Below are positions 10,766-35,372 of a stretch of 64,000 bases of DNA, piece by piece; position 1 is the first letter of the stretch, and every line of letters begins with the position of its first letter. The translations under genes and the position numbers were made by a program. The stretch is from Candidatus Hodarchaeota archaeon. GTDB taxonomy: Archaea > Asgardarchaeota > Lokiarchaeia > Sigyniarchaeales > SOKP01. The stretch covers positions 128,001 to 192,000 of the forward strand of contig JBHLJY010000003.1 in NCBI GenBank assembly GCA_048887225.1. Direction: 5' to 3'. The notes beneath the pieces were generated by a model. It was not told the DNA's origin, made no database searches, and saw only the letters and a program-made list of their open reading frames with translations.

Positions 10766-11863
10766 CTATATTTTTCTTTTAATTTTTAACTCTTTTTCAA
10801 AAAAGCCAGACTCAATAATTTTTTTTCTTTTTTCAGTTAAAATTGTATATATCTTAATAGGATTATATTGTTTTAGATTATTTTCAAGAAAATTCGTAAT
10901 TCTTTTTCTGGTTAAATATATCGAATATTCTGAAATGTCGCATCCTATCCATCTCCTTTTCAACTTCTCCGCAGCTAATAATGTTGTACCAGAACCACAA
11001 AAAAAGTCTGCAATTAGATCCCCTTCATTAGACCCTAATTGAATAATTCTTTCAAGTAATTCGTGATGTTTTTGAGTAGGGTATCCTGTCCATTCTTTTG
11101 AAGCAGGTTGCATACATGGAATTTTCCATACATCATCTAGTTTTTTATCTGTTACAATTCTATATATAACATGGCCATTATTGTTCTTAACATTTTTTAG
11201 AACACCATTTACCATTTGTCTTTTAAGTTGCTTCCTAGGTTTTTTACGTGGAATTCGAATTTCGTTAAAATTATAGTTATTTGATTTCGAGTATACTAAA
11301 ATATTATCGTATGCCCGTGGTAAATTTTTCTTCCCAGCTGAATATTTATTATAATAATACCAAACGATATTGTTTACAAATCTATTTTTTCCAAAAACCT
11401 CGTCCAAAATTAGTCTTATATAATGACTTGCATGCCAGTCTATATGAACGAAAATTAATCCGGTTTTAGATAATAACTCTTTAAATAAAATTATCCTCTC
11501 ATATAACATTTGCAAATATGAATCTAAATCATCTTCCCAATGATCGTAATAGGCTATGGAATCATAATTTAAATCATTATCATTAATTTTTATATGATAA
11601 TTAGAACCAGTAAAGAATGGGGGATCTATATAAATCAAATTAATTTTTTCTTCATAATTATTTAATAAATAAAATAAAACTTCCAAATTATCCCCCCAAA
11701 ATAATTTATTTGTCCAATTATCTGAAGAGGACAAATCTTTAGAATTTATTATTGAATCATTAAGGATACTATTGACAAGCTTAAATTCATTGTAGTATTT
11801 TTTTTTAAATCCTTCAATCTTATCATGTAATTTTGCCTTATTCTTCCAAGTTAATTTAACCAT
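10766..11863 (-). CDS. Site-specific N4/N6 DNA methyltransferase (beta class), orphan
   Basis: GDNLE, IYIDPPF (motif IV), YPTQK, DFFCGSGTT (motif I); no neighbouring endonuclease. Confidence 0.88.
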   Translation of the reverse strand: MVKLTWKNKAKLHDKIEGFKKKYYNEFKLVNSILNDSIINSKDLSSSDNWTNKLFWGDNLEVLFYLLNNYEEKINLIYIDPPFFTGSNYHIKINDNDLNYDSIAYYDHWEDDLDSYLQMLYERIILFKELLSKTGLIFVHIDWHASHYIRLILDEVFGKNRFVNNIVWYYYNKYSAGKKNLPRAYDNILVYSKSNNYNFNEIRIPRKKPRKQLKRQMVNGVLKNVKNNNGHVIYRIVTDKKLDDVWKIPCMQPASKEWTGYPTQKHHELLERIIQLGSNEGDLIADFFCGSGTTLLAAEKLKRRWIGCDISEYSIYLTRKRITNFLENNLKQYNPIKIYTILTEKRKKIIESGFFEKELKIKRKI

Positions 11864-11883
11864 TTAAATCTACAATCGTTTAA

Positions 11884-13140
11884 TTATAATTTAAATAATA
11901 ATATTGTTAAAAAAGTCGTTCCTATTAATATTGAAATAGTTAATAATTGGTATCCTAATAAATGGATACAATAAAGTTTTTTTTCTTTATCAGGATTTAA
12001 AACTCTTAATGAATAAAACATTTTATTTACAATAGCTCCAGTTAAACCAATTGATAACATAATTAAGGCATCTGTTTCAGTTACTAAACCTCCTAAATAG
12101 GCAGTTACTGCGAATAAAGAAGAAGCACCGCCAGAGAGTAAACCTATAGCAAAAGCAATCAAATAAATTGTAAAGATATTTAAAGTGAAAAATTCTAAAA
12201 TAAGGGTAATTATTAACGCTAAAGAGTATGTTCCAGCAAAAATAAGTGCCCCTTTTAATGACAAAGGATTTTTGATTCTATCTAATGTAAGAGATGTTTC
12301 TTTTTTTCTTAATATTAAAAAGGATCCGATTAATCCAATCCCAGCAGTTATTAAAATTGGCATTAAAGCATATCTTAATAATAAAGGTGCTAAAAGTAAA
12401 ACAAGAATCATTCTTATTAACATTGTTTGAATTACGAGCCATATGGATGATGAAGATGCTCCTGCTTCTGCTAAATCTTCAGTGGTTGCTTCGGAATGAG
12501 CAAGACCACCTAAAAACGACATATAATATAAATTGTGCTTAACAGAACTGCGGAGTAAGAAATAACTTATATATTTAATTGCTAATATAGTTATGAATAT
12601 AATAATTATAGATTTTAAATTGATATTTGCTATTATGATGTTGTCAGGAATTAGAATAAATAATAAAACTACGATTGCTATGAATTCCACAGTTCCCGTC
12701 CATTCGATTGTTTCTAGTTTCGTTATTTTTTGGAACTGTGTTTTAGTTGATAAAATAATTAAAAATATGACGGAGATTACAATAGCTAAAAAATACATAT
12801 AATAACTTAATATTCCAACTACTATTGATAAAAGCATTGATACGGTGGTTGTATATCCTGGATCTTCTGTATGAAATAATCGATAAACGGCACCAATTAA
12901 GAGAAATACGACCATACCAGAAAAAATTATAATTAATAATACAATTCCCAAATCTTTAAAAAAATTCTCATAGATAATTATTAATGACGTTGATATTAAT
13001 GAGAAAAAAATATGGTCACGTGCACCAAATTGTTTTTTACCTCTTTCACGTTCAATCCCAATAATAAACCCACAAAAAAAAGAAACAATAATCGCGAAGA
13101 AATATGAGTAAAACTCGTCTTTTATTATATATTGCATCAA
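11884..13140 (-). CDS. MgtC/SapB + DUF4010 membrane protein
   Basis: IGIERE..FGARD, GYTT, LGGLAHSEATT; about 12 TM. Confidence 0.8.
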   Translation of the reverse strand: MMQYIIKDEFYSYFFAIIVSFFCGFIIGIERERGKKQFGARDHIFFSLISTSLIIIYENFFKDLGIVLLIIIFSGMVVFLLIGAVYRLFHTEDPGYTTTVSMLLSIVVGILSYYMYFLAIVISVIFLIILSTKTQFQKITKLETIEWTGTVEFIAIVVLLFILIPDNIIIANINLKSIIIIFITILAIKYISYFLLRSSVKHNLYYMSFLGGLAHSEATTEDLAEAGASSSSIWLVIQTMLIRMILVLLLAPLLLRYALMPILITAGIGLIGSFLILRKKETSLTLDRIKNPLSLKGALIFAGTYSLALIITLILEFFTLNIFTIYLIAFAIGLLSGGASSLFAVTAYLGGLVTETDALIMLSIGLTGAIVNKMFYSLRVLNPDKEKKLYCIHLLGYQLLTISILIGTTFLTILLFKL

Positions 13141-24491: not shown

Positions 24492-24672
24492 GAGTAATCA
24501 CTTCAAAATTCGATTTTAGTTTTTTTTTTTATTATAATAATAATAAAAGTATTTATTATTATGTCTAAGGAATCTCGTTGAATTTCAAAAATTTTTAGAC
24601 TTAAATATTATTAAATCTTACTTAATAAATATAGAATTATTATTCACAAAAATATAAGATAAATTGATTCAG

Positions 24673-25026
24673 ATGAGTGAAAAGATATCTAATATTTTAG
24701 AATCCCTTAAAGCGATAAAAGGTGTACACGGAGCTGCCTTAATCGAAAAGTTTGGGTTAATTAAAGGTAGCGCTTTGCCTGGTTGGGTGGACCCTGAAGC
24801 AGTGGCGGCAATGGTAACACTTATTTTGAAAGCCTCTCAAAGAGCAACTAAAGAATTAGAACAGGGAGTTTTTAAAAATGCGACAATTGAGAGTGAAAAG
24901 GGTAAAATTCTCTTTTCAGAAGTTAAGGGTAATATAATTACAATTATTACAACTACAGATTGCAAATTAGGAATCGTAAATTTAAAGTTATCAGCAGCGA
25001 GTTCCGCTTTAGAAAGTATGTTATAA
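24673..25026 (+). CDS. Roadblock/LC7 domain protein
   Basis: Helix-GVHGAALIEKFGL-helix-strands-LG(I)V roadblock pattern, about 117 aa. Confidence 0.82.
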   Translation: MSEKISNILESLKAIKGVHGAALIEKFGLIKGSALPGWVDPEAVAAMVTLILKASQRATKELEQGVFKNATIESEKGKILFSEVKGNIITIITTTDCKLGIVNLKLSAASSALESML

Positions 25027-25053: not shown

Positions 25054-26514
25054 TTAAACAAATTCTTTTAATAATTTATCCAAAATATCATTTGCTAGTT
25101 CGGGATCTGCTTGTCCTTTTGTTTCCTTCATTATCTTTCCTACTAATGCCATTTTCGCTTTAGGATTTTTGCGATAATCTTCTATTATTTTTGGATTCCC
25201 TTCTATAACGTTCCTACATAAATCTTCTAAAAATTTCTCATCAGCTATTCTTACTTTCCCGCTTTTTTTGATGATAGTTGATATAGGAATTCCTTTCATC
25301 ATCTCATCAATATAAGTTTTTGCAATCTTTGTTGTAATTTTCCCTACTTTAATTAAATTAATTAAATCTACAACTTGCTTCGGTTTTAAGCTGGTTTCTT
25401 TGATCTGTTTATTATTCTCATTCAGCCAACGGGCGACATCATTCATTACCCAATTACAATATAATTTATAATCTTCTTGCTCAAAATTTTTATCAATCTG
25501 AACCCCCTCTTCATAGAAATCTGCAATATTCTTATCGAGAACTAATAAATCAGCATCAAATTCAGAAAGATGATATGCTTCTTGAAGTCTTTTTGATCTA
25601 GCCATTGGCATTTCGGGCATCTGTTTTTTGACGTTTTCAATGAACTCATCATCTAATTCAATTTTCGGTAAGTCTTGTTCTGGATAATATCGATAATCTT
25701 CTTCAAATTCCTTTTTTCTCATTTCGACGGTGATACGTCTTTTTTCATCCCAACCACGTGTCTCTTGAATGAGCGCTTTTCCTCTTTCTATCATTTGTCG
25801 ATGTCTTCTGATTTCCCATTTCAGTGCTCTTTCTACTTCCTTAAAACTATTAATATTTTTTACCTCAACACGGGCGCTCCCTTTAATGGAGATATTTGCA
25901 TCCACTCTGCATGTTCCCTCTATATTTAAATCCGAAATCCCGGTATATTGAATGATACTTTTTAATTGGTTGAGATATTCTCTCGCTTCTTCTGGTGACC
26001 TTATGACGGGGTCGGTAACAATTTCTATTAGAGCGATTCCAGAACGGTTATAATCGACTAAGGTATAAGGCGAAATAGTTATACTCCCTTTATGTACAAG
26101 TCGAGCAGGATCCTCTTCTAGATGAATTCGATTCAGTTTGATATTCTTTTTGATGCCATTAATTTTTATAGGAACAATCCCACCATCCGCAAACGCATTT
26201 CCTCCTAATTTATTATAGAGTGTTAATTGAAAGTTCCTTGCCATATCGGGGTAATAATATTGCTTTCTAAAGAAGAAAATAGATTTATTTATTTTGCATT
26301 CTAAAGCTAACGCCAAACGAGTTGCGAACTCAAGAGCTCTTTTATTTATTAAGGGGAGTATACCTGGGAAGCCAAGACATCCGGGACAAACATACGTATT
26401 TGGTTCTTTTCCGTAATAATCGCTATTACAACCGCAGAAAAATTTAGTTTTTAAATTTGATAATTGAATGTGGGTTTCCAAACCAATAATTACATCCTCA
26501 TAATTTTCAGTCAT
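25054..26514 (-). CDS. gatB: Asp/Glu-tRNA amidotransferase subunit B, second copy
   Basis: GLETH, HLEED, DYNRSG..IEIV, EVKN, DYRY.PE, C-terminal YqeY domain. Confidence 0.92.
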   Translation of the reverse strand: MTENYEDVIIGLETHIQLSNLKTKFFCGCNSDYYGKEPNTYVCPGCLGFPGILPLINKRALEFATRLALALECKINKSIFFFRKQYYYPDMARNFQLTLYNKLGGNAFADGGIVPIKINGIKKNIKLNRIHLEEDPARLVHKGSITISPYTLVDYNRSGIALIEIVTDPVIRSPEEAREYLNQLKSIIQYTGISDLNIEGTCRVDANISIKGSARVEVKNINSFKEVERALKWEIRRHRQMIERGKALIQETRGWDEKRRITVEMRKKEFEEDYRYYPEQDLPKIELDDEFIENVKKQMPEMPMARSKRLQEAYHLSEFDADLLVLDKNIADFYEEGVQIDKNFEQEDYKLYCNWVMNDVARWLNENNKQIKETSLKPKQVVDLINLIKVGKITTKIAKTYIDEMMKGIPISTIIKKSGKVRIADEKFLEDLCRNVIEGNPKIIEDYRKNPKAKMALVGKIMKETKGQADPELANDILDKLLKEFV

Positions 26515-26524
26515 ACAAAAATCC

Positions 26525-28000
26525 TCAATTTTTAATTGCAGGCATTTTTCTAAATATATTTAATTCTTGTTCGAGTAAATAACCAATATTTAGTATTGAT
26601 TTTTCATCCAAATAATTCCCTATTATCTGTATACCGATGGGGAGCTGTTTCTTATCAAACCCGCAGGGTATAGATAATGCTGGCAAACCTGAAAGGTTCG
26701 CAGGACAAGTTAAGCTGTTCATATCATACATTTTTAAAGGTTGATCTATTAATTCGTTAATTTTAAATGCTGTTTTTGGCATTGTAGGAGAGATCAACGC
26801 ATTACATTGTTTCAGAGCATTTTGAATATCATTTTTAATCAATGTCCTAACTTTTTGGGCTTTAATATAAAAAGGCTTGTAATATTTTTTGGTCAATAAA
26901 TAAGTCCCTAACAATGATCTTCTTTTAGCTTCTATACCAAGTTTTTCTCCTCGTGTTTTGCTATATACCTCAAAAACATCTTTTGTTTGATCAAAAAACA
27001 ACATCTTACCGTATCTTAAACCATCAAATTTTGCGATATTTGATGCTTCTTCACTAAGCGCAATTAAAAAATATGCGGGTAAAGCAAATTGGAAATTAGG
27101 AAAGGAGATCTCCAGAAATTCTATCCCCAAATTTTCTAGCTTCTTAATAGCTTTAAATACGACTTCTTTGGTTGAAGGATCAATGTCACCATTAAAAAAT
27201 TCTTTAGGAATTCCAACTATTTTGTTTTCAATACTCTCCTCCAAAAAATCGAAGTAGTTTTCAATTTTTTCATGTAGGGTAGTTGGATCTAATGAGTCGC
27301 GTCCTGCTATGATTTGAAGTAATAACGCACAATCTTTAACACATTTAGTAATTGGACCTATTTGTTCAAGAGAATTTCCATAAGAAGCTAATCCGAATTT
27401 TGATACTAAACCCGTTGTAGGTTTTAATCCAACAACACCACAAAACGAAGCAGTACATCGTATGCTCCCGCCAATATCACTACCGAGAGCAAAAATTGTT
27501 TGTTTCGACGCAACTGCGGCTCCCGAACCTCCACTTGCTCCTCCTGGAACATAATCTAAATTCCATGGATTATAAGTCGCAAAATAGCAACTTGTTTCAG
27601 TGGAACATCCCATTCCGAATTCATCCATGTTAGTACTTCCAATAAATATAGCTGAATCTTTTTCAACTAATTTCTCGATTACAGTTGCGTTAAATGGGGG
27701 AATATAACCTTCTAAAATTTTTGAAGCACAAGTAGTAGGATAGTTTTTAACACAAATACCATCATCGACAACAAGGGGCAATCCAGATAATCTTCCTTTA
27801 AGTTTTTTTTGCTTTAATTTCTTGTCCAATTCTTTTGCTCTAATCAATGCATTTTCCTTGGTTAAATACACGAAGGAATGTAAATAAGGTTCAGTTTCAT
27901 CAATGATTTTAAAAGTATCCTCAATGATTTCTTGAATTGTTAATTCTTTATTGTTTATTTTTTCCAATAATTCATACCCCATAAGTTCCTGCATTTTCAT
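26525..28000 (-). CDS. gatA: Amidotransferase subunit A, second copy with degenerate catalytic triad
   Basis: Full-length GatA homologue, but VVDD replaces AIKD and GGASGGS replaces GGSSGGS. Confidence 0.85.
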   Translation of the reverse strand: MKMQELMGYELLEKINNKELTIQEIIEDTFKIIDETEPYLHSFVYLTKENALIRAKELDKKLKQKKLKGRLSGLPLVVDDGICVKNYPTTCASKILEGYIPPFNATVIEKLVEKDSAIFIGSTNMDEFGMGCSTETSCYFATYNPWNLDYVPGGASGGSGAAVASKQTIFALGSDIGGSIRCTASFCGVVGLKPTTGLVSKFGLASYGNSLEQIGPITKCVKDCALLLQIIAGRDSLDPTTLHEKIENYFDFLEESIENKIVGIPKEFFNGDIDPSTKEVVFKAIKKLENLGIEFLEISFPNFQFALPAYFLIALSEEASNIAKFDGLRYGKMLFFDQTKDVFEVYSKTRGEKLGIEAKRRSLLGTYLLTKKYYKPFYIKAQKVRTLIKNDIQNALKQCNALISPTMPKTAFKINELIDQPLKMYDMNSLTCPANLSGLPALSIPCGFDKKQLPIGIQIIGNYLDEKSILNIGYLLEQELNIFRKMPAIKN

Positions 28001-28183
28001 TAGTATCTAACCGAAATTCATATGATATATATTCTAGAACATTTGTAAAATTAATTTAACTGGTATAATTATGAATTTCTAAAAAATCTCACTAAAATTA
28101 AATCATAACCTATGGGAGTTTTGAAATGTTATAGTCTACAAAAAAGATATAAAATAAGAATAATGGTAAGAGATACTAACTTT

Positions 28184-29638
28184 TTACTTTTTAATAATCC
28201 TTAATATAATTTCCCTTGTTTTTTCTGGATCCAATTGACCTCTGGTTTTTTGCATACATTTTCCTATTAATGCTTCCAACGCTTTAGGATTTTTTTTTAA
28301 ATCCTCAACGATACTTTTATTTTCTTTTATGACATCTCTTACAATTGAAATAATTTTTTCCTCATCGGCGATTCTTTTTTTTCCAGTTTTTTTCATTATT
28401 TCGGAGATGGAGGTTCCTTTCATCATTTCATTGATATATGATTTTGCGATTTTTCCAGTAATCTTTCCTTGCTTGATGAAATTAATCAAATCTATCACTT
28501 GTTTAGGTTTTAACTTAGTTTCTCTTATATGTTTTTTGTTAAAATTTAGCCAGCGCGAGATATCTCCTTTTAACCAATTACAGAATTGTTTATAGTCGTC
28601 TAATTGAAAAGACTTTTGAGATTTTACACCTTCCTCATAGAAGTCGGCAATATCTTTATCTATAACTAGAATTTCTGCATCAAATTCAGACAATCCATAC
28701 TCTTTTTGGAAACGTATAGATCTTGCCTTTGGCATCTCTGGTAATTTATCTTTGATTTCTTTTATGAATTTCTTGTCAATTTCAAAGGGAGGTAGATCTT
28801 GTTCTGGAAAATATCGATAATCCTTTTCAAATTCTTTTGTTCTGAGACCAATAGTTATCCTTCTTTTATCATCCCAATGACGGGTTTCCTGAATTAATTC
28901 TTTACCTCTTTTTAATAAATTCTTTTGTCGCTGAATTTCCCATTTTAACGCTCGCTCAACTTCTTTAAAACTATTTATGTTCTTAACTTCAGATCGTGCA
29001 TGCCCTTTAATTGAAATATTCGCGTCCACACGACAAGACCCCTCTAAATCTAAGTCAGATATGCCTGTATATTGCACAATTGATTTTAATTGTCTTAAAT
29101 ATTCACGAGCCTCCTCAGGAGATTTCATTACAGGGTCAGATACAATTTCTATGAGAGTAACGCCTGAACGATTATAATCAACTAAAGTAAATGGAGATGT
29201 GGCAATCGATCCTTTATGGACTAAGCGCGCAGGATCTTCCTCAAGATGTATCCTATTAAGTTTTAAATCCTTTTTCTTGCCGTCTAATTTTATTGTGATT
29301 TTTCCTCCATCAGCAAAAGCGCTTCCCCCAGCTTTATGAAATTGGGATATTTGGTAGTTTTTCGACATGTCTGGATAGAAGTAATTCTTTCTAAAGAACC
29401 AAAATGATTCATTTATATCACAACCTAATGCTAAAGCCAATCTCGTCGCAAATTCAATAGCCCTCTTATTCACTACAGGTAATGAGCCCGGTAAACCAAG
29501 ACAAATTGGGCAAGTATGAGTATTTGGTCTTGCTCCTCGATAATCGCTATTGCAACTACAAAATAATTTTGTTTTTAAATTTGTGATTTGAATATGGGTT
29601 TCTAATCCTATAATTATGTCCTCATATTTTTTACTCAA
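28184..29638 (-). CDS. gatB: Asp/Glu-tRNA amidotransferase subunit B, first copy
   Basis: GLETH, RKNYFYPD, YQISQ, HLEED, ETRHWD, DYRYFPE. Confidence 0.95.
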   Translation of the reverse strand: MSKKYEDIIIGLETHIQITNLKTKLFCSCNSDYRGARPNTHTCPICLGLPGSLPVVNKRAIEFATRLALALGCDINESFWFFRKNYFYPDMSKNYQISQFHKAGGSAFADGGKITIKLDGKKKDLKLNRIHLEEDPARLVHKGSIATSPFTLVDYNRSGVTLIEIVSDPVMKSPEEAREYLRQLKSIVQYTGISDLDLEGSCRVDANISIKGHARSEVKNINSFKEVERALKWEIQRQKNLLKRGKELIQETRHWDDKRRITIGLRTKEFEKDYRYFPEQDLPPFEIDKKFIKEIKDKLPEMPKARSIRFQKEYGLSEFDAEILVIDKDIADFYEEGVKSQKSFQLDDYKQFCNWLKGDISRWLNFNKKHIRETKLKPKQVIDLINFIKQGKITGKIAKSYINEMMKGTSISEIMKKTGKKRIADEEKIISIVRDVIKENKSIVEDLKKNPKALEALIGKCMQKTRGQLDPEKTREIILRIIKK

Positions 29639-29648
29639 TTCTTTTGCC

Positions 29649-31121
29649 TCATTTTGTAATAGGGGCTAATTTTCTAAAAATATTTAATTTTTGCTCAAGT
29701 AAATAAGCAATATTAAGAATCGTTTTTTCATCAAAATAATTTCCGATAATTTGAAAACCGATAGGTAATCCCTTACCATCAAATCCGCATGGAACTGATA
29801 ATGCTGGTAATCCTGCAAGATTAACGGGACAAGTTAAAATATCCATCATATACATCTGCAATGGGTCGTCTACTAACTCGCCAATTTTAAAGGCGGTTGT
29901 TGGCATTGTTGGGCAGACGATTGCGTCGCACTTCTTAAACGCGTTTTGAAAATCATTCCTAATCAAAGTCCGTACTTTTAGCGCTTTAATATAAAACATG
30001 TCGTAATAACCAGCTGATAAAGCGTACGTCCCTAATATTATTCTTCTTCTTACTTCAGGACCAAATTTTTCTCCACGAGTTTTACTAAATATTTCAAACA
30101 CATCTCCATTTGGAACTTCGGACATTTTTCCATGTCTCAATCCATCATACCTCTCTAAATTAGAACTTGCTTCACTCATTGCTATTAAGTAGTATGTAGG
30201 AATAGTATATTCAAGATGTGGTAATGAAATTTCAATTGTCTTAGCTCCAATACTCTTTAATATATCAATTGATTTATTTACAGAATTTTTAATGGAAGAA
30301 TTTACTCCCTCTCTAAAGAATTCCTTAGGAACGCCAAGAGTTTTATTTTCTATTGGTTTGTTTAATTCTTCAGTATATTTCTCAACTTTAATCTCAACAG
30401 AGGTTGAATCTAATGGATCCTTTCCAGCTATAATTTCCAATAATAATGCACAATCGTAAACACATCTGGTTATTGGCCCAATTTGATCTAAAGAATTTGC
30501 GTAAGAAACTAACCCATATCTCGAAACTCTGCCATATGTTGGTTTTAATCCTACAACTCCGCAATATGATGCTGGACATCTTATACTACCACCAGTGTCA
30601 CTACCTAAAGAAAAAATAACTTGTCCTGAGGCCACACACGATCCTGAACCTCCACTTGAACCTCCAGGTACGTATTCTAGATTCCATGGATTATATGTAG
30701 GACCATAACAGCTATTTTCCGTAGAGGAACCCATAGCAAACTCGTCCATATTTGTACGACCGATGGAGATTGCCCCTCTTTGTTTAATTAATCGTTCGAT
30801 AACTGTCGCATTATAAGGGGGATGATAACCTTCTAAAATTTTTGAACAACATGTTGTTGGATTATCTTTTATACATATGAGGTCCTTTATTGCAATTGGC
30901 ACTCCATACAGTTTCCCGATAGTTTTTCCATTTTTTAATTCTTTATCCTTTTGTTTTGCTTCGCTTATTGCTTTCTCTTTAGATACATGAACAAAAGAAT
31001 GTAAAAGATTATCTGTTTTTTCAATTCTATCAAGATAAAACCGAATAATTTCCTGAATTTGAATTTCTCTATTTTTAACTTTTTCAATTAACTCGTATCC
31101 CATGTATTCAAGGATATTCAT
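29649..31121 (-). CDS. gatA: Amidotransferase subunit A (glutaminase), intact copy
   Basis: AIKD, NMDEFAMGSS, GGSSGGS, GSDTGGSIR, SEASSNL, RRIILG. Confidence 0.95.
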   Translation of the reverse strand: MNILEYMGYELIEKVKNREIQIQEIIRFYLDRIEKTDNLLHSFVHVSKEKAISEAKQKDKELKNGKTIGKLYGVPIAIKDLICIKDNPTTCCSKILEGYHPPYNATVIERLIKQRGAISIGRTNMDEFAMGSSTENSCYGPTYNPWNLEYVPGGSSGGSGSCVASGQVIFSLGSDTGGSIRCPASYCGVVGLKPTYGRVSRYGLVSYANSLDQIGPITRCVYDCALLLEIIAGKDPLDSTSVEIKVEKYTEELNKPIENKTLGVPKEFFREGVNSSIKNSVNKSIDILKSIGAKTIEISLPHLEYTIPTYYLIAMSEASSNLERYDGLRHGKMSEVPNGDVFEIFSKTRGEKFGPEVRRRIILGTYALSAGYYDMFYIKALKVRTLIRNDFQNAFKKCDAIVCPTMPTTAFKIGELVDDPLQMYMMDILTCPVNLAGLPALSVPCGFDGKGLPIGFQIIGNYFDEKTILNIAYLLEQKLNIFRKLAPITK

Positions 31122-31263
31122 TTTAAAATAACCAAATAAATCAATAAATACTGTAGAATGATCTCAAGATTAGCTTATCTTTATAAATCATCTATTTCTA
31201 AAAAATTCATTTATTTATTTTTAAAATAAAAAAAAGAACAAATATATAATGGGCAGATATAAC

Positions 31264-31298
31264 TAATTACTCTTCATTTGAAAAATCAAGAGTAATTA
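31264..31298. promoter_or_regulatory. Perfect 11-bp inverted repeat with 13-nt spacer (operator or hairpin) upstream of gatA
   Basis: TAATTACTCTT-N13-AAGAGTAATTA. Confidence 0.45.
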
Positions 31299-31352
31299 TG
31301 AAAAATTTGATTATTTATGCTAATAATCGCACTCAAGAAACAGAGCGATTAA

Positions 31353-32153
31353 TTACTTAGAGAATTTTTTTTTATTCTTTTTCAAAAGATATTTAGAAAA
31401 AATGTTCATATATAAGCATTCTTCGGGAGGCATCTCTGTTGTGAATTTTGGATTTTCAGTAAATTCCACATTAGCTCCTCTGATTATAACTATAGGTGTT
31501 TGTTGATTTGCTTCGTTCAATAGAAATTGAGCCGCACTTGTGAGATCATCTGCTATCGCTCGCATAGTAATTTCTAAAGGTCTGCCATATAAATCTGGAT
31601 GACCTCTTAAATCCTCAACTGGTTCGAATCCTGCCGTTGCTATAGCAATGCCTATTGTTCCCTTTCTTAAAGGTTGGACTCTCGAATCTGCAAAAATAAC
31701 TCCAAGATCTTTTATGTTAAATTCCTCTCTTAATCTTTTCCAAAAATCCCAAACCTCTTTTTTAATATTTTTAGGTAGGAGAACTACATTATTAGGTCCA
31801 GCGTTAGATTGGTCAATTCCAGCATTCGCAATTAAGAAATCGTTAACTTTTGCTAATATTACGTGTCCTTGAGGTAGTCCTCCTAAAATCATAGATGCTT
31901 CTTTCAATATTAATTCCACATATCTCTCATCCATATTGCATATTTTAGCCATTTTTTTTGCTTTTTCTGATACGGTTTTTATACTAGATAAATTTATCAC
32001 GCGACCTTGAGAAGTGGCGATAATCTTTTCAGAAATTACAATAATATCTCCTTCTACCAGCGTTTCTTTATTGCTATTAATATAATTAATTAGGATCTCC
32101 AATAATGGATCATTTTTCTTAATTAATGGAAGCTTTATGGAAAAAAGATTCAT
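31353..32153 (-). CDS. cofE: CofE-family gamma-glutamate ligase (F420:Glu ligase or FolC2-like)
   Basis: GDIIVISEKI, ANAGIDQSN, ADSR..PLR.G, DLYGRPL, ADDL..AA. Confidence 0.82.
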   Translation of the reverse strand: MNLFSIKLPLIKKNDPLLEILINYINSNKETLVEGDIIVISEKIIATSQGRVINLSSIKTVSEKAKKMAKICNMDERYVELILKEASMILGGLPQGHVILAKVNDFLIANAGIDQSNAGPNNVVLLPKNIKKEVWDFWKRLREEFNIKDLGVIFADSRVQPLRKGTIGIAIATAGFEPVEDLRGHPDLYGRPLEITMRAIADDLTSAAQFLLNEANQQTPIVIIRGANVEFTENPKFTTEMPPEECLYMNIFSKYLLKKNKKKFSK

Positions 32154-32203
32154 AGTATAAAAAAAATTAAACTTATTTGATATACTTTTTTTCTTAACAA
32201 AAT

Positions 32204-33076
32204 ATGAGCAAGATTTATTTAAAATTATTTGATTTTTTAGAAATAGGCGACGATTATCCGACGATAATAATGGGTGTGTTAAATCTTAGTCCCGAATCTT
32301 TTTATCAAGGATCGGTATATGATAATTTAAATGATTTAGAGCAAATTTCACTAAAGATGATAAAAAATGGAGCAAAAATGCTCGATCTAGGGGCACGATC
32401 AACAGCTCCATGGTCACGAAAAATTACAATACAAGAAGAAATTAATCGTATCATACCTGCGATGGAATTACTTTGTAAAATAATACCAGATGACATCATT
32501 TTATCAATTGATACCCAATATAGAAAAGTTGCAGAACCTTGTTATGAAATCGCTATTAAATCAAATAAAAAAATAATATTGAATGACGTTAGTTGTTTGA
32601 AAACAGATCCTACATTAGGAGTATTCATAGTTGATCAAAATCTCCCTATAATCTTAATGGCATCTAAAAATATTCCTGGGGATTGTTTAACCATTACTGA
32701 AATAATTAAAGAATTTGAATTAACTATTAAAAATTTACAATCAATAGGTTATAATGAAAACCTTGTTATTTTAGACCCGGGAATTGGTCATTGGATTAAA
32801 GAAAAAACACATATATATGATTTAAAAATAATAAATAATTTAAATCAGCTACGAAAATTACAAAAACCTATCTTGGTTGCGATATCAAGGAAATCCTTCA
32901 TAGGTTCTACCTTAAATCTTAAAGATCCATTAAAACCAGAAGATCGATATAATGGTACTCTTTCTGCTACAGCAATAGCAGTTTTTAATGGGGTTCATAT
33001 TGTTCGAACTCATGATATTAATAATCAACTCTTAGAAATCGTTAAAATTGCAGAGGAAATTAGAAGAAATAAATAG
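32204..33076 (+). CDS. folP: Dihydropteroate synthase
   Basis: MGVLNLSPESF, DLGARST.P, SIDT, NDVS, DPGIG, SRKSF, RTHD. Confidence 0.9.
   Translation: MSKIYLKLFDFLEIGDDYPTIIMGVLNLSPESFYQGSVYDNLNDLEQISLKMIKNGAKMLDLGARSTAPWSRKITIQEEINRIIPAMELLCKIIPDDIILSIDTQYRKVAEPCYEIAIKSNKKIILNDVSCLKTDPTLGVFIVDQNLPIILMASKNIPGDCLTITEIIKEFELTIKNLQSIGYNENLVILDPGIGHWIKEKTHIYDLKIINNLNQLRKLQKPILVAISRKSFIGSTLNLKDPLKPEDRYNGTLSATAIAVFNGVHIVRTHDINNQLLEIVKIAEEIRRNK

Positions 33077-33284: not shown

Positions 33285-35372
<2,088 letters not shown>

What the first reader, a model, noticed from the sequence alone, without database searches (positions are those of the whole stretch)
25054..31121. Tandem gatA-gatB duplication whose second GatA is glutaminase-dead
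Seen: gene order gatA1-gatB1-gatA2-gatB2, all full length. In GatA2 the triad Lys is Asp (PLVVDD vs PIAIKD) and the cis-Ser is Ala (GGASGGS vs GGSSGGS). Positions near the Gln pocket also differ (YF vs YY; MYDMN vs MYMMD). Only the nucleophile Ser (GGSIR) remains. Known: amidase-signature enzymes need the Ser-cisSer-Lys triad. Inference: GatA2B2 is maintained as an ammonia- or amine-dependent amidotransferase, or as a neofunctionalised ligase with GatA2 as a structural subunit.
Basis: partly seen in the sequence, partly recalled or inferred. Interest (0 to 1): 0.85.

Follow-up and report, generated by a model that had tools for sequence, protein, structure and literature searches.

The report
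Second GatAB pair with dead glutaminase
A few Loki-type Asgard archaea keep, under selection, a second copy of the enzyme that makes asparagine on tRNA; this copy has lost the residues needed to split glutamine and most likely uses free ammonia instead, which I could not find described for this enzyme family.

Summary
Confirmed and not private to this genome. The order is gatA1-gatB1-gatA2-gatB2, all intact. GatA2 has the triad Lys as Asp and the cis-Ser as Ala. The same tandem occurs in at least six other metagenomic Lokiarchaeia lineages but in 0 of 399 other GTDB Asgard genomes searched. GatA2 is one clade (100/99). The Lys is Asp/Glu in 8/8 GatA2 against Lys in 159/159 GatA1; the cis-Ser loss is variable. 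dN/dS is 0.10-0.21 for gatA2 and 0.07-0.20 for gatB2, so neutral decay is rejected. GatB2 keeps all Mg/ATP residues. Its own fixed changes lie in the N-terminal cradle; its tRNA-binding tail swaps with ordinary GatB. The genome has ND-AspRS, GatDE, one GatC and no AsnRS, and it carries the same layout for carAB with a glutaminase-dead CarA2. The scan noted that CarA case before, here and in other genomes. Best reading (about 0.6, inferred, no assay): an ammonia-dependent Asp-tRNA(Asn) amidotransferase isozyme with GatA2 as scaffold or ammonia entry. It is a new variant of a known kind.

The parts
29649..31121 (-). gatA1, canonical glutaminase subunit with intact Ser-cisSer-Lys triad
28184..29638 (-). 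gatB1, canonical kinase/transamidase subunit (TTG start); closer to gatB1 of other tandem carriers (81-83% nt) than to the syntenic single-copy relative L131 (75%)
28001..28183 (-). 183-nt spacer before gatA2; an AT-rich promoter-like block is kept in all six tandem loci aligned, so gatA2-gatB2 probably has its own promoter (inferred)
26525..28000 (-). gatA2, full-length pseudo-glutaminase; GatA fold predicted intact (pLDDT 91.9, TM 0.96 to S. aureus GatA)
27764..27766 (-). GatA2 Asp79 in place of the triad Lys; acidic in 8/8 GatA2, Lys in 159/159 GatA1
27536..27538 (-). GatA2 Ala155 in place of cis-Ser (S. aureus Ser154); variable in the clade
27464..27475 (-). GatA2 Ile176 (S. aureus Thr175) to Ser179 (nucleophile, kept)
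26717..26719 (-). GatA2 Asn428 in place of the glutamine-binding Asp425
25054..26514 (-). gatB2, full length; Mg ligands H15/E133/E164 and ATP-site residues kept; clade-specific cradle domain, exchangeable tail
26201..26247 (-). GatB2 signature segment, residues 90-105 (K93R = S. aureus K88; I97L, Q99L = S. aureus Q94; A103L)

Best explanation
GatA2B2, with the genome's single GatC, is a glutamine-independent isozyme of the archaeal Asp-tRNA(Asn) amidotransferase. GatB2 phosphorylates Asp-tRNA(Asn) with ATP and amidates it with free ammonia; GatA2 no longer splits glutamine and serves as scaffold, perhaps with its emptied, more acidic pocket letting ammonia in. GatA1B1 remains the glutamine-dependent enzyme. 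Shown: loss of the triad Lys, one origin, purifying selection, intact GatB2 catalytic residues, exchangeable tail, parallel dead-CarA tandem. Inferred: no glutaminase activity, A2-B2 pairing, tRNA(Asn) as substrate, ammonia as donor, the entry route, and the benefit (skipping glutamine synthetase saves one ATP per amide in ammonium-rich sediment).
For: Lys->Asp/Glu in 8/8 GatA2. GatA2 keeps only 58/88 universal positions while GatB2 keeps 69/78, so relaxation falls on the glutaminase subunit. dN/dS 0.10-0.21 and 0.07-0.20. GatB2 keeps H15, E133, E164, R203, D205, N207, S209, E217, K219. The GatB2 cradle is one clade (support 1.0) but its tail is not, and L137 has a single gatB with a B1 cradle and a B2-like tail. 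Both GatBs have the short archaeal loop in place of the bacterial 3-10 turn (PMC2811023). The genome has ND-AspRS and GatDE, no AsnRS. The same genome has carA1-carB1-carA2-carB2 with CarA2 Cys->Gly and His->Asn, conserved in at least 15 relatives and the only match in five of them. Yeast GatFAB uses NH4Cl, and disturbing the GatA pocket raises that activity (PMC4027206).
Against: No genome was found in which GatA2B2 is the only pair, so sufficiency is not shown. Normal AdTs already accept ammonium, so a separate enzyme needs a kinetic gain that is only assumed. Thr175->Ile/Met and Lys88->Arg hit residues I recall as tunnel residues whose mutation lowers activity in bacteria (papers not held, unverified); this could block the tunnel rather than open it. 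No Amt transporter was found. The fixed acid at position 79 and the fixed GatB2 changes could equally mark a new ligand. Most CarA2 carriers lack GatA2, so the two do not travel together.
Confidence: 0.6

Rival explanations
1. GatA2 is retooled, not dead: Ser179 with Asp79 and Glu318 binds or slowly hydrolyses another donor, or passes a small organic amine so that GatB2 makes an N-substituted amide on tRNA.
For: Position 79 stays acidic across near-saturated synonymous divergence; Ser179, Arg181 and the carboxylate-binding Arg are kept; Glu318 and Asn428 are fixed in the derived subclade.
Against: The cis-Ser that links base and nucleophile is Ala or Gly in 6/8. Keeping Ser179 is unremarkable, since 66% of universal sites are kept. 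The two basal members lack Glu318 and Asn428. The CarA2 parallel points to ammonia.
Confidence: 0.15
2. GatB2 has a changed tRNA or amino-acid specificity (for example Glu-tRNA(Gln)) and backs up GatDE with ammonia.
For: Fixed changes near the first-base-pair loop (L198I, S201T) and at residues 213-216, 254 and 265 of the cradle. A tRNA-Gln gene lies in the window, 23 kb away.
Against: Loop length equals that of GatB1; tails exchange with GatB1; GatD and GatE are over their family cut-offs.
Confidence: 0.08
3. Regulatory or decoy complex: GatA2B2 competes for the single GatC or for Asp-tRNA(Asn) and tunes Asn-tRNA supply or fidelity without amidating.
For: One gatC; probable own promoter; changes at putative tunnel residues.
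Against: All GatB2 catalytic residues stay under selection; a decoy would not need them.
Confidence: 0.07
4. GatB2 is a tRNA-independent ATP-dependent amide ligase with GatA2 as structural partner.
For: Clade-specific cradle; in some loci an aminotransferase or enoyl-CoA hydratase gene lies inside or beside the block.
Against: Helical and YqeY tail kept whole and interchangeable with ordinary GatB; the neighbours are not conserved across carriers.
Confidence: 0.05
5. Slowly decaying duplicate kept by chance or by dosage of GatB.
For: Patchy and often lost (L131 lacks it; L137 looks like a loop-out product); long branches; dN/dS up to about twice that of gatA1 in most pairs.
Against: Intact ORFs in every lineage, bootstrap upper bounds of dN/dS at or below 0.40 for all gatA2 pairs with usable divergence, fixed clade-specific residues in both subunits.
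Confidence: 0.05

Closest known systems
Archaeal GatCAB Asp-tRNA(Asn) amidotransferase (M. thermautotrophicus; PMC2330236, PMC2811023); structures 2DF4, 3H0L, 3AL0
   Same: GatA fold, GatB cradle/helical/YqeY layout, Mg and ATP ligands, short archaeal loop, context of ND-AspRS plus GatDE without AsnRS.
   Different: Second tandem pair; GatA lacks the triad Lys and mostly the cis-Ser and Asp425; GatB has its own fixed cradle residues. I found no paper on a natural triad-less GatA in the library searched.
Vertebrate carbamoyl-phosphate synthetase I (own knowledge) and the dead-CarA carAB duplicate of these Lokiarchaeia
   Same: Amidotransferase whose glutaminase part is kept whole but has lost its catalytic residues; in CPS I the donor is free ammonia. 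The carAB case has the same tandem layout in the same genome.
   Different: Unrelated folds (class I GATase with ATP-grasp against amidase signature with GatB); CarA2 is far more common in the family and is sometimes the only copy found.
Yeast mitochondrial GatFAB GatF-truncation mutants (PMC4027206)
   Same: Impaired glutaminase with retained or raised NH4Cl-driven transamidation.
   Different: Engineered; triad intact; Glu-tRNA(Gln) substrate.
Toc64/OM64 pseudo-amidase domains (own knowledge)
   Same: Amidase-signature fold kept without full catalytic set.
   Different: Protein-import receptors with TPR domains; no GatB partner.

Membership tests
GatA (TIGR00132), amidase-signature glutaminase | Score over the family cut-off and GatA fold | tested here: met
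   536.5 bits against 481.1; model TM 0.96, rmsd 1.5 to 2DF4_A
GatA (TIGR00132), amidase-signature glutaminase | Ser-cisSer-Lys triad | tested here: not met
   Lys->Asp, cis-Ser->Ala, Ser kept
GatA (TIGR00132), amidase-signature glutaminase | Glutamine-binding Arg358 and Asp425 | tested here: not met
   Arg kept, Asp->Asn
GatA (TIGR00132), amidase-signature glutaminase | Glutaminase activity | not testable with these tools
   needs an assay
GatB (TIGR00133) | Score over cut-off; Mg ligands His/Glu/Glu and ATP-site residues | tested here: met
   491.5 bits against 314.8; H15, E133, E164, N207, S209, E217 invariant
GatB (TIGR00133) | Helical and YqeY tRNA-binding tail | tested here: met
   full length; Pfam GatB_Yqey; tail mixes with ordinary GatB
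Archaeal Asp-AdT type GatCAB | Short loop instead of the bacterial 3-10 turn; ND-AspRS and GatDE present, AsnRS absent | tested here: met
   genome 98% complete
Archaeal Asp-AdT type GatCAB | GatC partner | tested here: inconclusive
   one gatC on another contig; binding to GatA2B2 not tested
Ammonia-dependent amidotransferase of the CPS I kind (works-like only) | Uses free ammonia and not glutamine | not testable with these tools
   inferred from residues and from the CarA2 parallel

The most novel reading that the evidence does not exclude
GatA2B2 is a natural, dedicated ammonia-only tRNA amidotransferase, and with the dead-CarA duplicate it forms a recurring Lokiarchaeial strategy of duplicating glutamine amidotransferases and switching the copy to free ammonia. 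A more extreme form, not excluded (about 0.07), is that the acidified pocket passes an organic amine and yields a non-standard aminoacyl-tRNA.
Probability: 0.5. Interest if true: 0.75.

Novelty: new variant of a known kind. Interest (0 to 1): 0.62.

Why it matters
GatA's glutaminase is treated as a fixed part of every GatCAB. A selected natural version without it would show that the indirect route to Asn-tRNA can run on ammonia alone in cells. It gives a ready-made active/dead paralog pair from one genome for testing how the two sites are coupled and how ammonia reaches GatB. With the parallel CarA case it suggests that some Asgard archaea save ATP by bypassing glutamine, which bears on their energy-limited physiology and on the idea that GatB/GatE ancestors used free ammonia.

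Tried and rejected
The search for related loci on genome contigs returned only distant ordinary GatA; viral contigs gave nothing. Replacement of a lost GatDE or glutamine synthetase is rejected: both are present. A genome-wide loss of glutaminases is rejected: CarA1, TrpG-, GuaA-, PyrG-, HisH-, PurQ-, GlmS-, PurF- and AsnB-like genes keep their Cys (named by motif only). The high identity of the gatA2 upstream spacer to L119/L132 (89-91%) is not used as proof of selection, because the adjacent gatB1 3' end is equally close. The sigma-70 scan was at chance level and no GGAA-N6-TTCC (NrpR-type) box was found. The papers on tunnel mutants and triad mutants were not held. I did not run complex prediction: a GatA-GatB pair would pass by likeness to solved structures. 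One dN/dS script crashed and was redone.
Full report
Observation. The minus strand carries gatA1 (29649-31121), gatB1 (28184-29638), gatA2 (26525-28000) and gatB2 (25054-26514), all uninterrupted and over the NCBIfam cut-offs. The copies are 61% and 67% identical. Aligned to S. aureus GatA, GatA2 has Lys79->Asp, cis-Ser154->Ala, Thr175->Ile, Arg200->Lys, Tyr310->Phe, Ala317->Glu and Asp425->Asn, and keeps Ser178 and Arg358. The triad and the Arg/Asp glutamine ligands are as described in PMC4027206 and PMC2330236. The AlphaFold model is a complete GatA fold (pLDDT 91.9; TM 0.96 to 2DF4). Nearest homologs are annotated Promethearchaeota/Lokiarchaeota.

Distribution. Of 114 family genomes with a GatA match, only this one has two full copies, and the GatB2 signature is in 0 of 399 other Asgard genomes. 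Metagenomes hold the same tandem in other lineages: L111/L132/L133 and L119, L118, L112/L134, L113-L115, L135 and a contig of ERZ27247880. GatB2 falls in eight 90%-identity clusters. Flanking genes are the same where contigs reach them, so this is one chromosomal site. GatA2 is one clade inside Lokiarchaeial GatA (100/99, long branches), while the GatA1 of carriers are interleaved with single-copy genomes. That means one old duplication followed by repeated loss, exchange between lineages, or both. L131 is 88-96% identical to the window in every flanking gene and in gatA1, has no second pair, and its gatB is only 75% identical; the window's gatB1 is closer to other carriers (81-83%). L137 has one gatB with a B1-type cradle and a tail closest to the window's GatB2, the expected product of a loop-out that removes gatA2. 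I did not establish the direction of these exchanges.

Selection. Pairwise dN/dS is 0.10-0.21 for gatA2 and 0.07-0.20 for gatB2, against 0.05-0.12 for gatA1 and gatB1, leaving out near-identical and saturated pairs. GatA2 is somewhat relaxed but far from neutral. Position 79 is Asp or Glu in 8/8 GatA2 and Lys in 159/159 GatA1; the cis-Ser is A,A,A,A,S,G,A,S; Ile/Met176, Glu318 and Asn428 mark the derived subclade, to which the window belongs. GatA2 keeps 58 of 88 universal positions, GatB2 69 of 78, so the surviving nucleophile Ser is weak evidence of catalysis.

GatB2. The Mg ligands (H15, E133, E164), the ATP-site residues and the four N-terminal Cys are invariant. Fixed GatB2 changes (R34Y, I45G, L49F, P92A, K93R, I97L, Q99L, A103L, L198I, S201T, H213S, S216V, H254G, L265M) all lie in the cradle. 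From my knowledge of the S. aureus structure, several face GatA or line the tunnel, as do the GatA2 changes at 195-208; K93R (S. aureus K88) co-occurs with Ile/Met176 (S. aureus T175) and both are absent in basal L135. I could not verify those roles in print. The cradle tree makes GatB2 one clade (1.0); the tail tree does not. Both GatBs have the short archaeal loop (PMC2811023). These points favour the same substrate as GatB1, Asp-tRNA(Asn).

Genome context. One GatC, GatDE, one ND-AspRS, one GluRS-family gene, glutamine synthetase, no AsnRS, no Amt found. Following an earlier scan note on AsnB-like genes I checked the other glutamine amidotransferases. Most keep their Cys, but contig C19 has carA1-carB1-carA2-carB2 with CarA2 Cys->Gly and His->Asn. 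This dead CarA is confirmed in 15 relatives and is the only match in G084, G033, G038, G081 and G027. Earlier scan reports describe it; those are AI notes, but I checked the residues myself. The same design in two unrelated enzymes, one with a known ammonia-using counterpart (vertebrate CPS I, own knowledge), is the main reason to prefer ammonia as donor.

Mechanism. Most likely (0.6) GatC-A2-B2 amidates Asp-tRNA(Asn) with free ammonia and GatA2 is a scaffold or ammonia entry. Yeast GatFAB with a disturbed GatA pocket amidates better with NH4Cl than the full-length enzyme (PMC4027206), so the chemistry is feasible. The entry route and the ATP-saving rationale are inference. Rivals are a retooled donor pocket (0.15), changed tRNA specificity (0.08), a decoy (0.07), a non-tRNA ligase (0.05) and decay (0.05).

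Known and new. GatB2 is a GatB. GatA2 is GatA by fold and score but fails the triad test, so it should be called a pseudo-GatA. Library searches found no report of a natural triad-less GatA or of Asgard GatCAB duplicates; the library lacks most subscription papers. Eight of 145 distant GatA representatives also lack the Lys, so the state may recur elsewhere. Verdict: real, conserved, rare; a new variant of a known kind; interest 0.62.

Noticed in passing
L152:5097-14128 (G000 C19:7096-16127): Tandem carA1-carB1-carA2-carB2; CarA2 has Cys->Gly and His->Asn, conserved in at least 15 family genomes and the only CarA match in five.
   Followed up: partly
G000 C2:299368-300705 and C2:305570-307429 (L140, L141): Two AsnB-like genes without the N-terminal catalytic Cys, besides an intact AsnB at C2:340463-342307.
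   Followed up: partly
P0302, P0306, P0346, P0348, P0350, P0407, P0411, P0428: Distant proteins over the GatA cut-off that lack the triad Lys, some also the Ser residues; P0306 cluster is annotated from Bacillota MAGs. Context not looked up.
   Followed up: partly
L137:261-1721: Single chimeric gatB: B1-type cradle, tail closest to the window's GatB2.
   Followed up: yes
L131:774-1463 against window 31122-31352: A DUF998 gene sits between cofE-like and gatA1 in relatives and is missing at this place in the window.
   Followed up: partly
L132:5829-6614 and 11149-12273: An enoyl-CoA hydratase gene lies between gatA1 and gatB1, and an aminotransferase gene after gatB2, in one carrier lineage.
   Followed up: no
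L115:3391-6648: gyrB of this relative carries an intein that the window's gyrB (33363-35372) lacks.
   Followed up: no
   Followed up: no
G037, G047, G063, G065, G067, G079, G093, G094: Family genomes 94-99% complete with no GatA match at E<=1e-80; they may use AsnRS instead. Not found with this query only.
   Followed up: no
window 24664-25026 and 31353-33076: Roadblock/LC7-type gene converging on gatB2, and a cofE-like plus dihydropteroate synthase pair upstream, conserved around the gat block in relatives.
   Followed up: no
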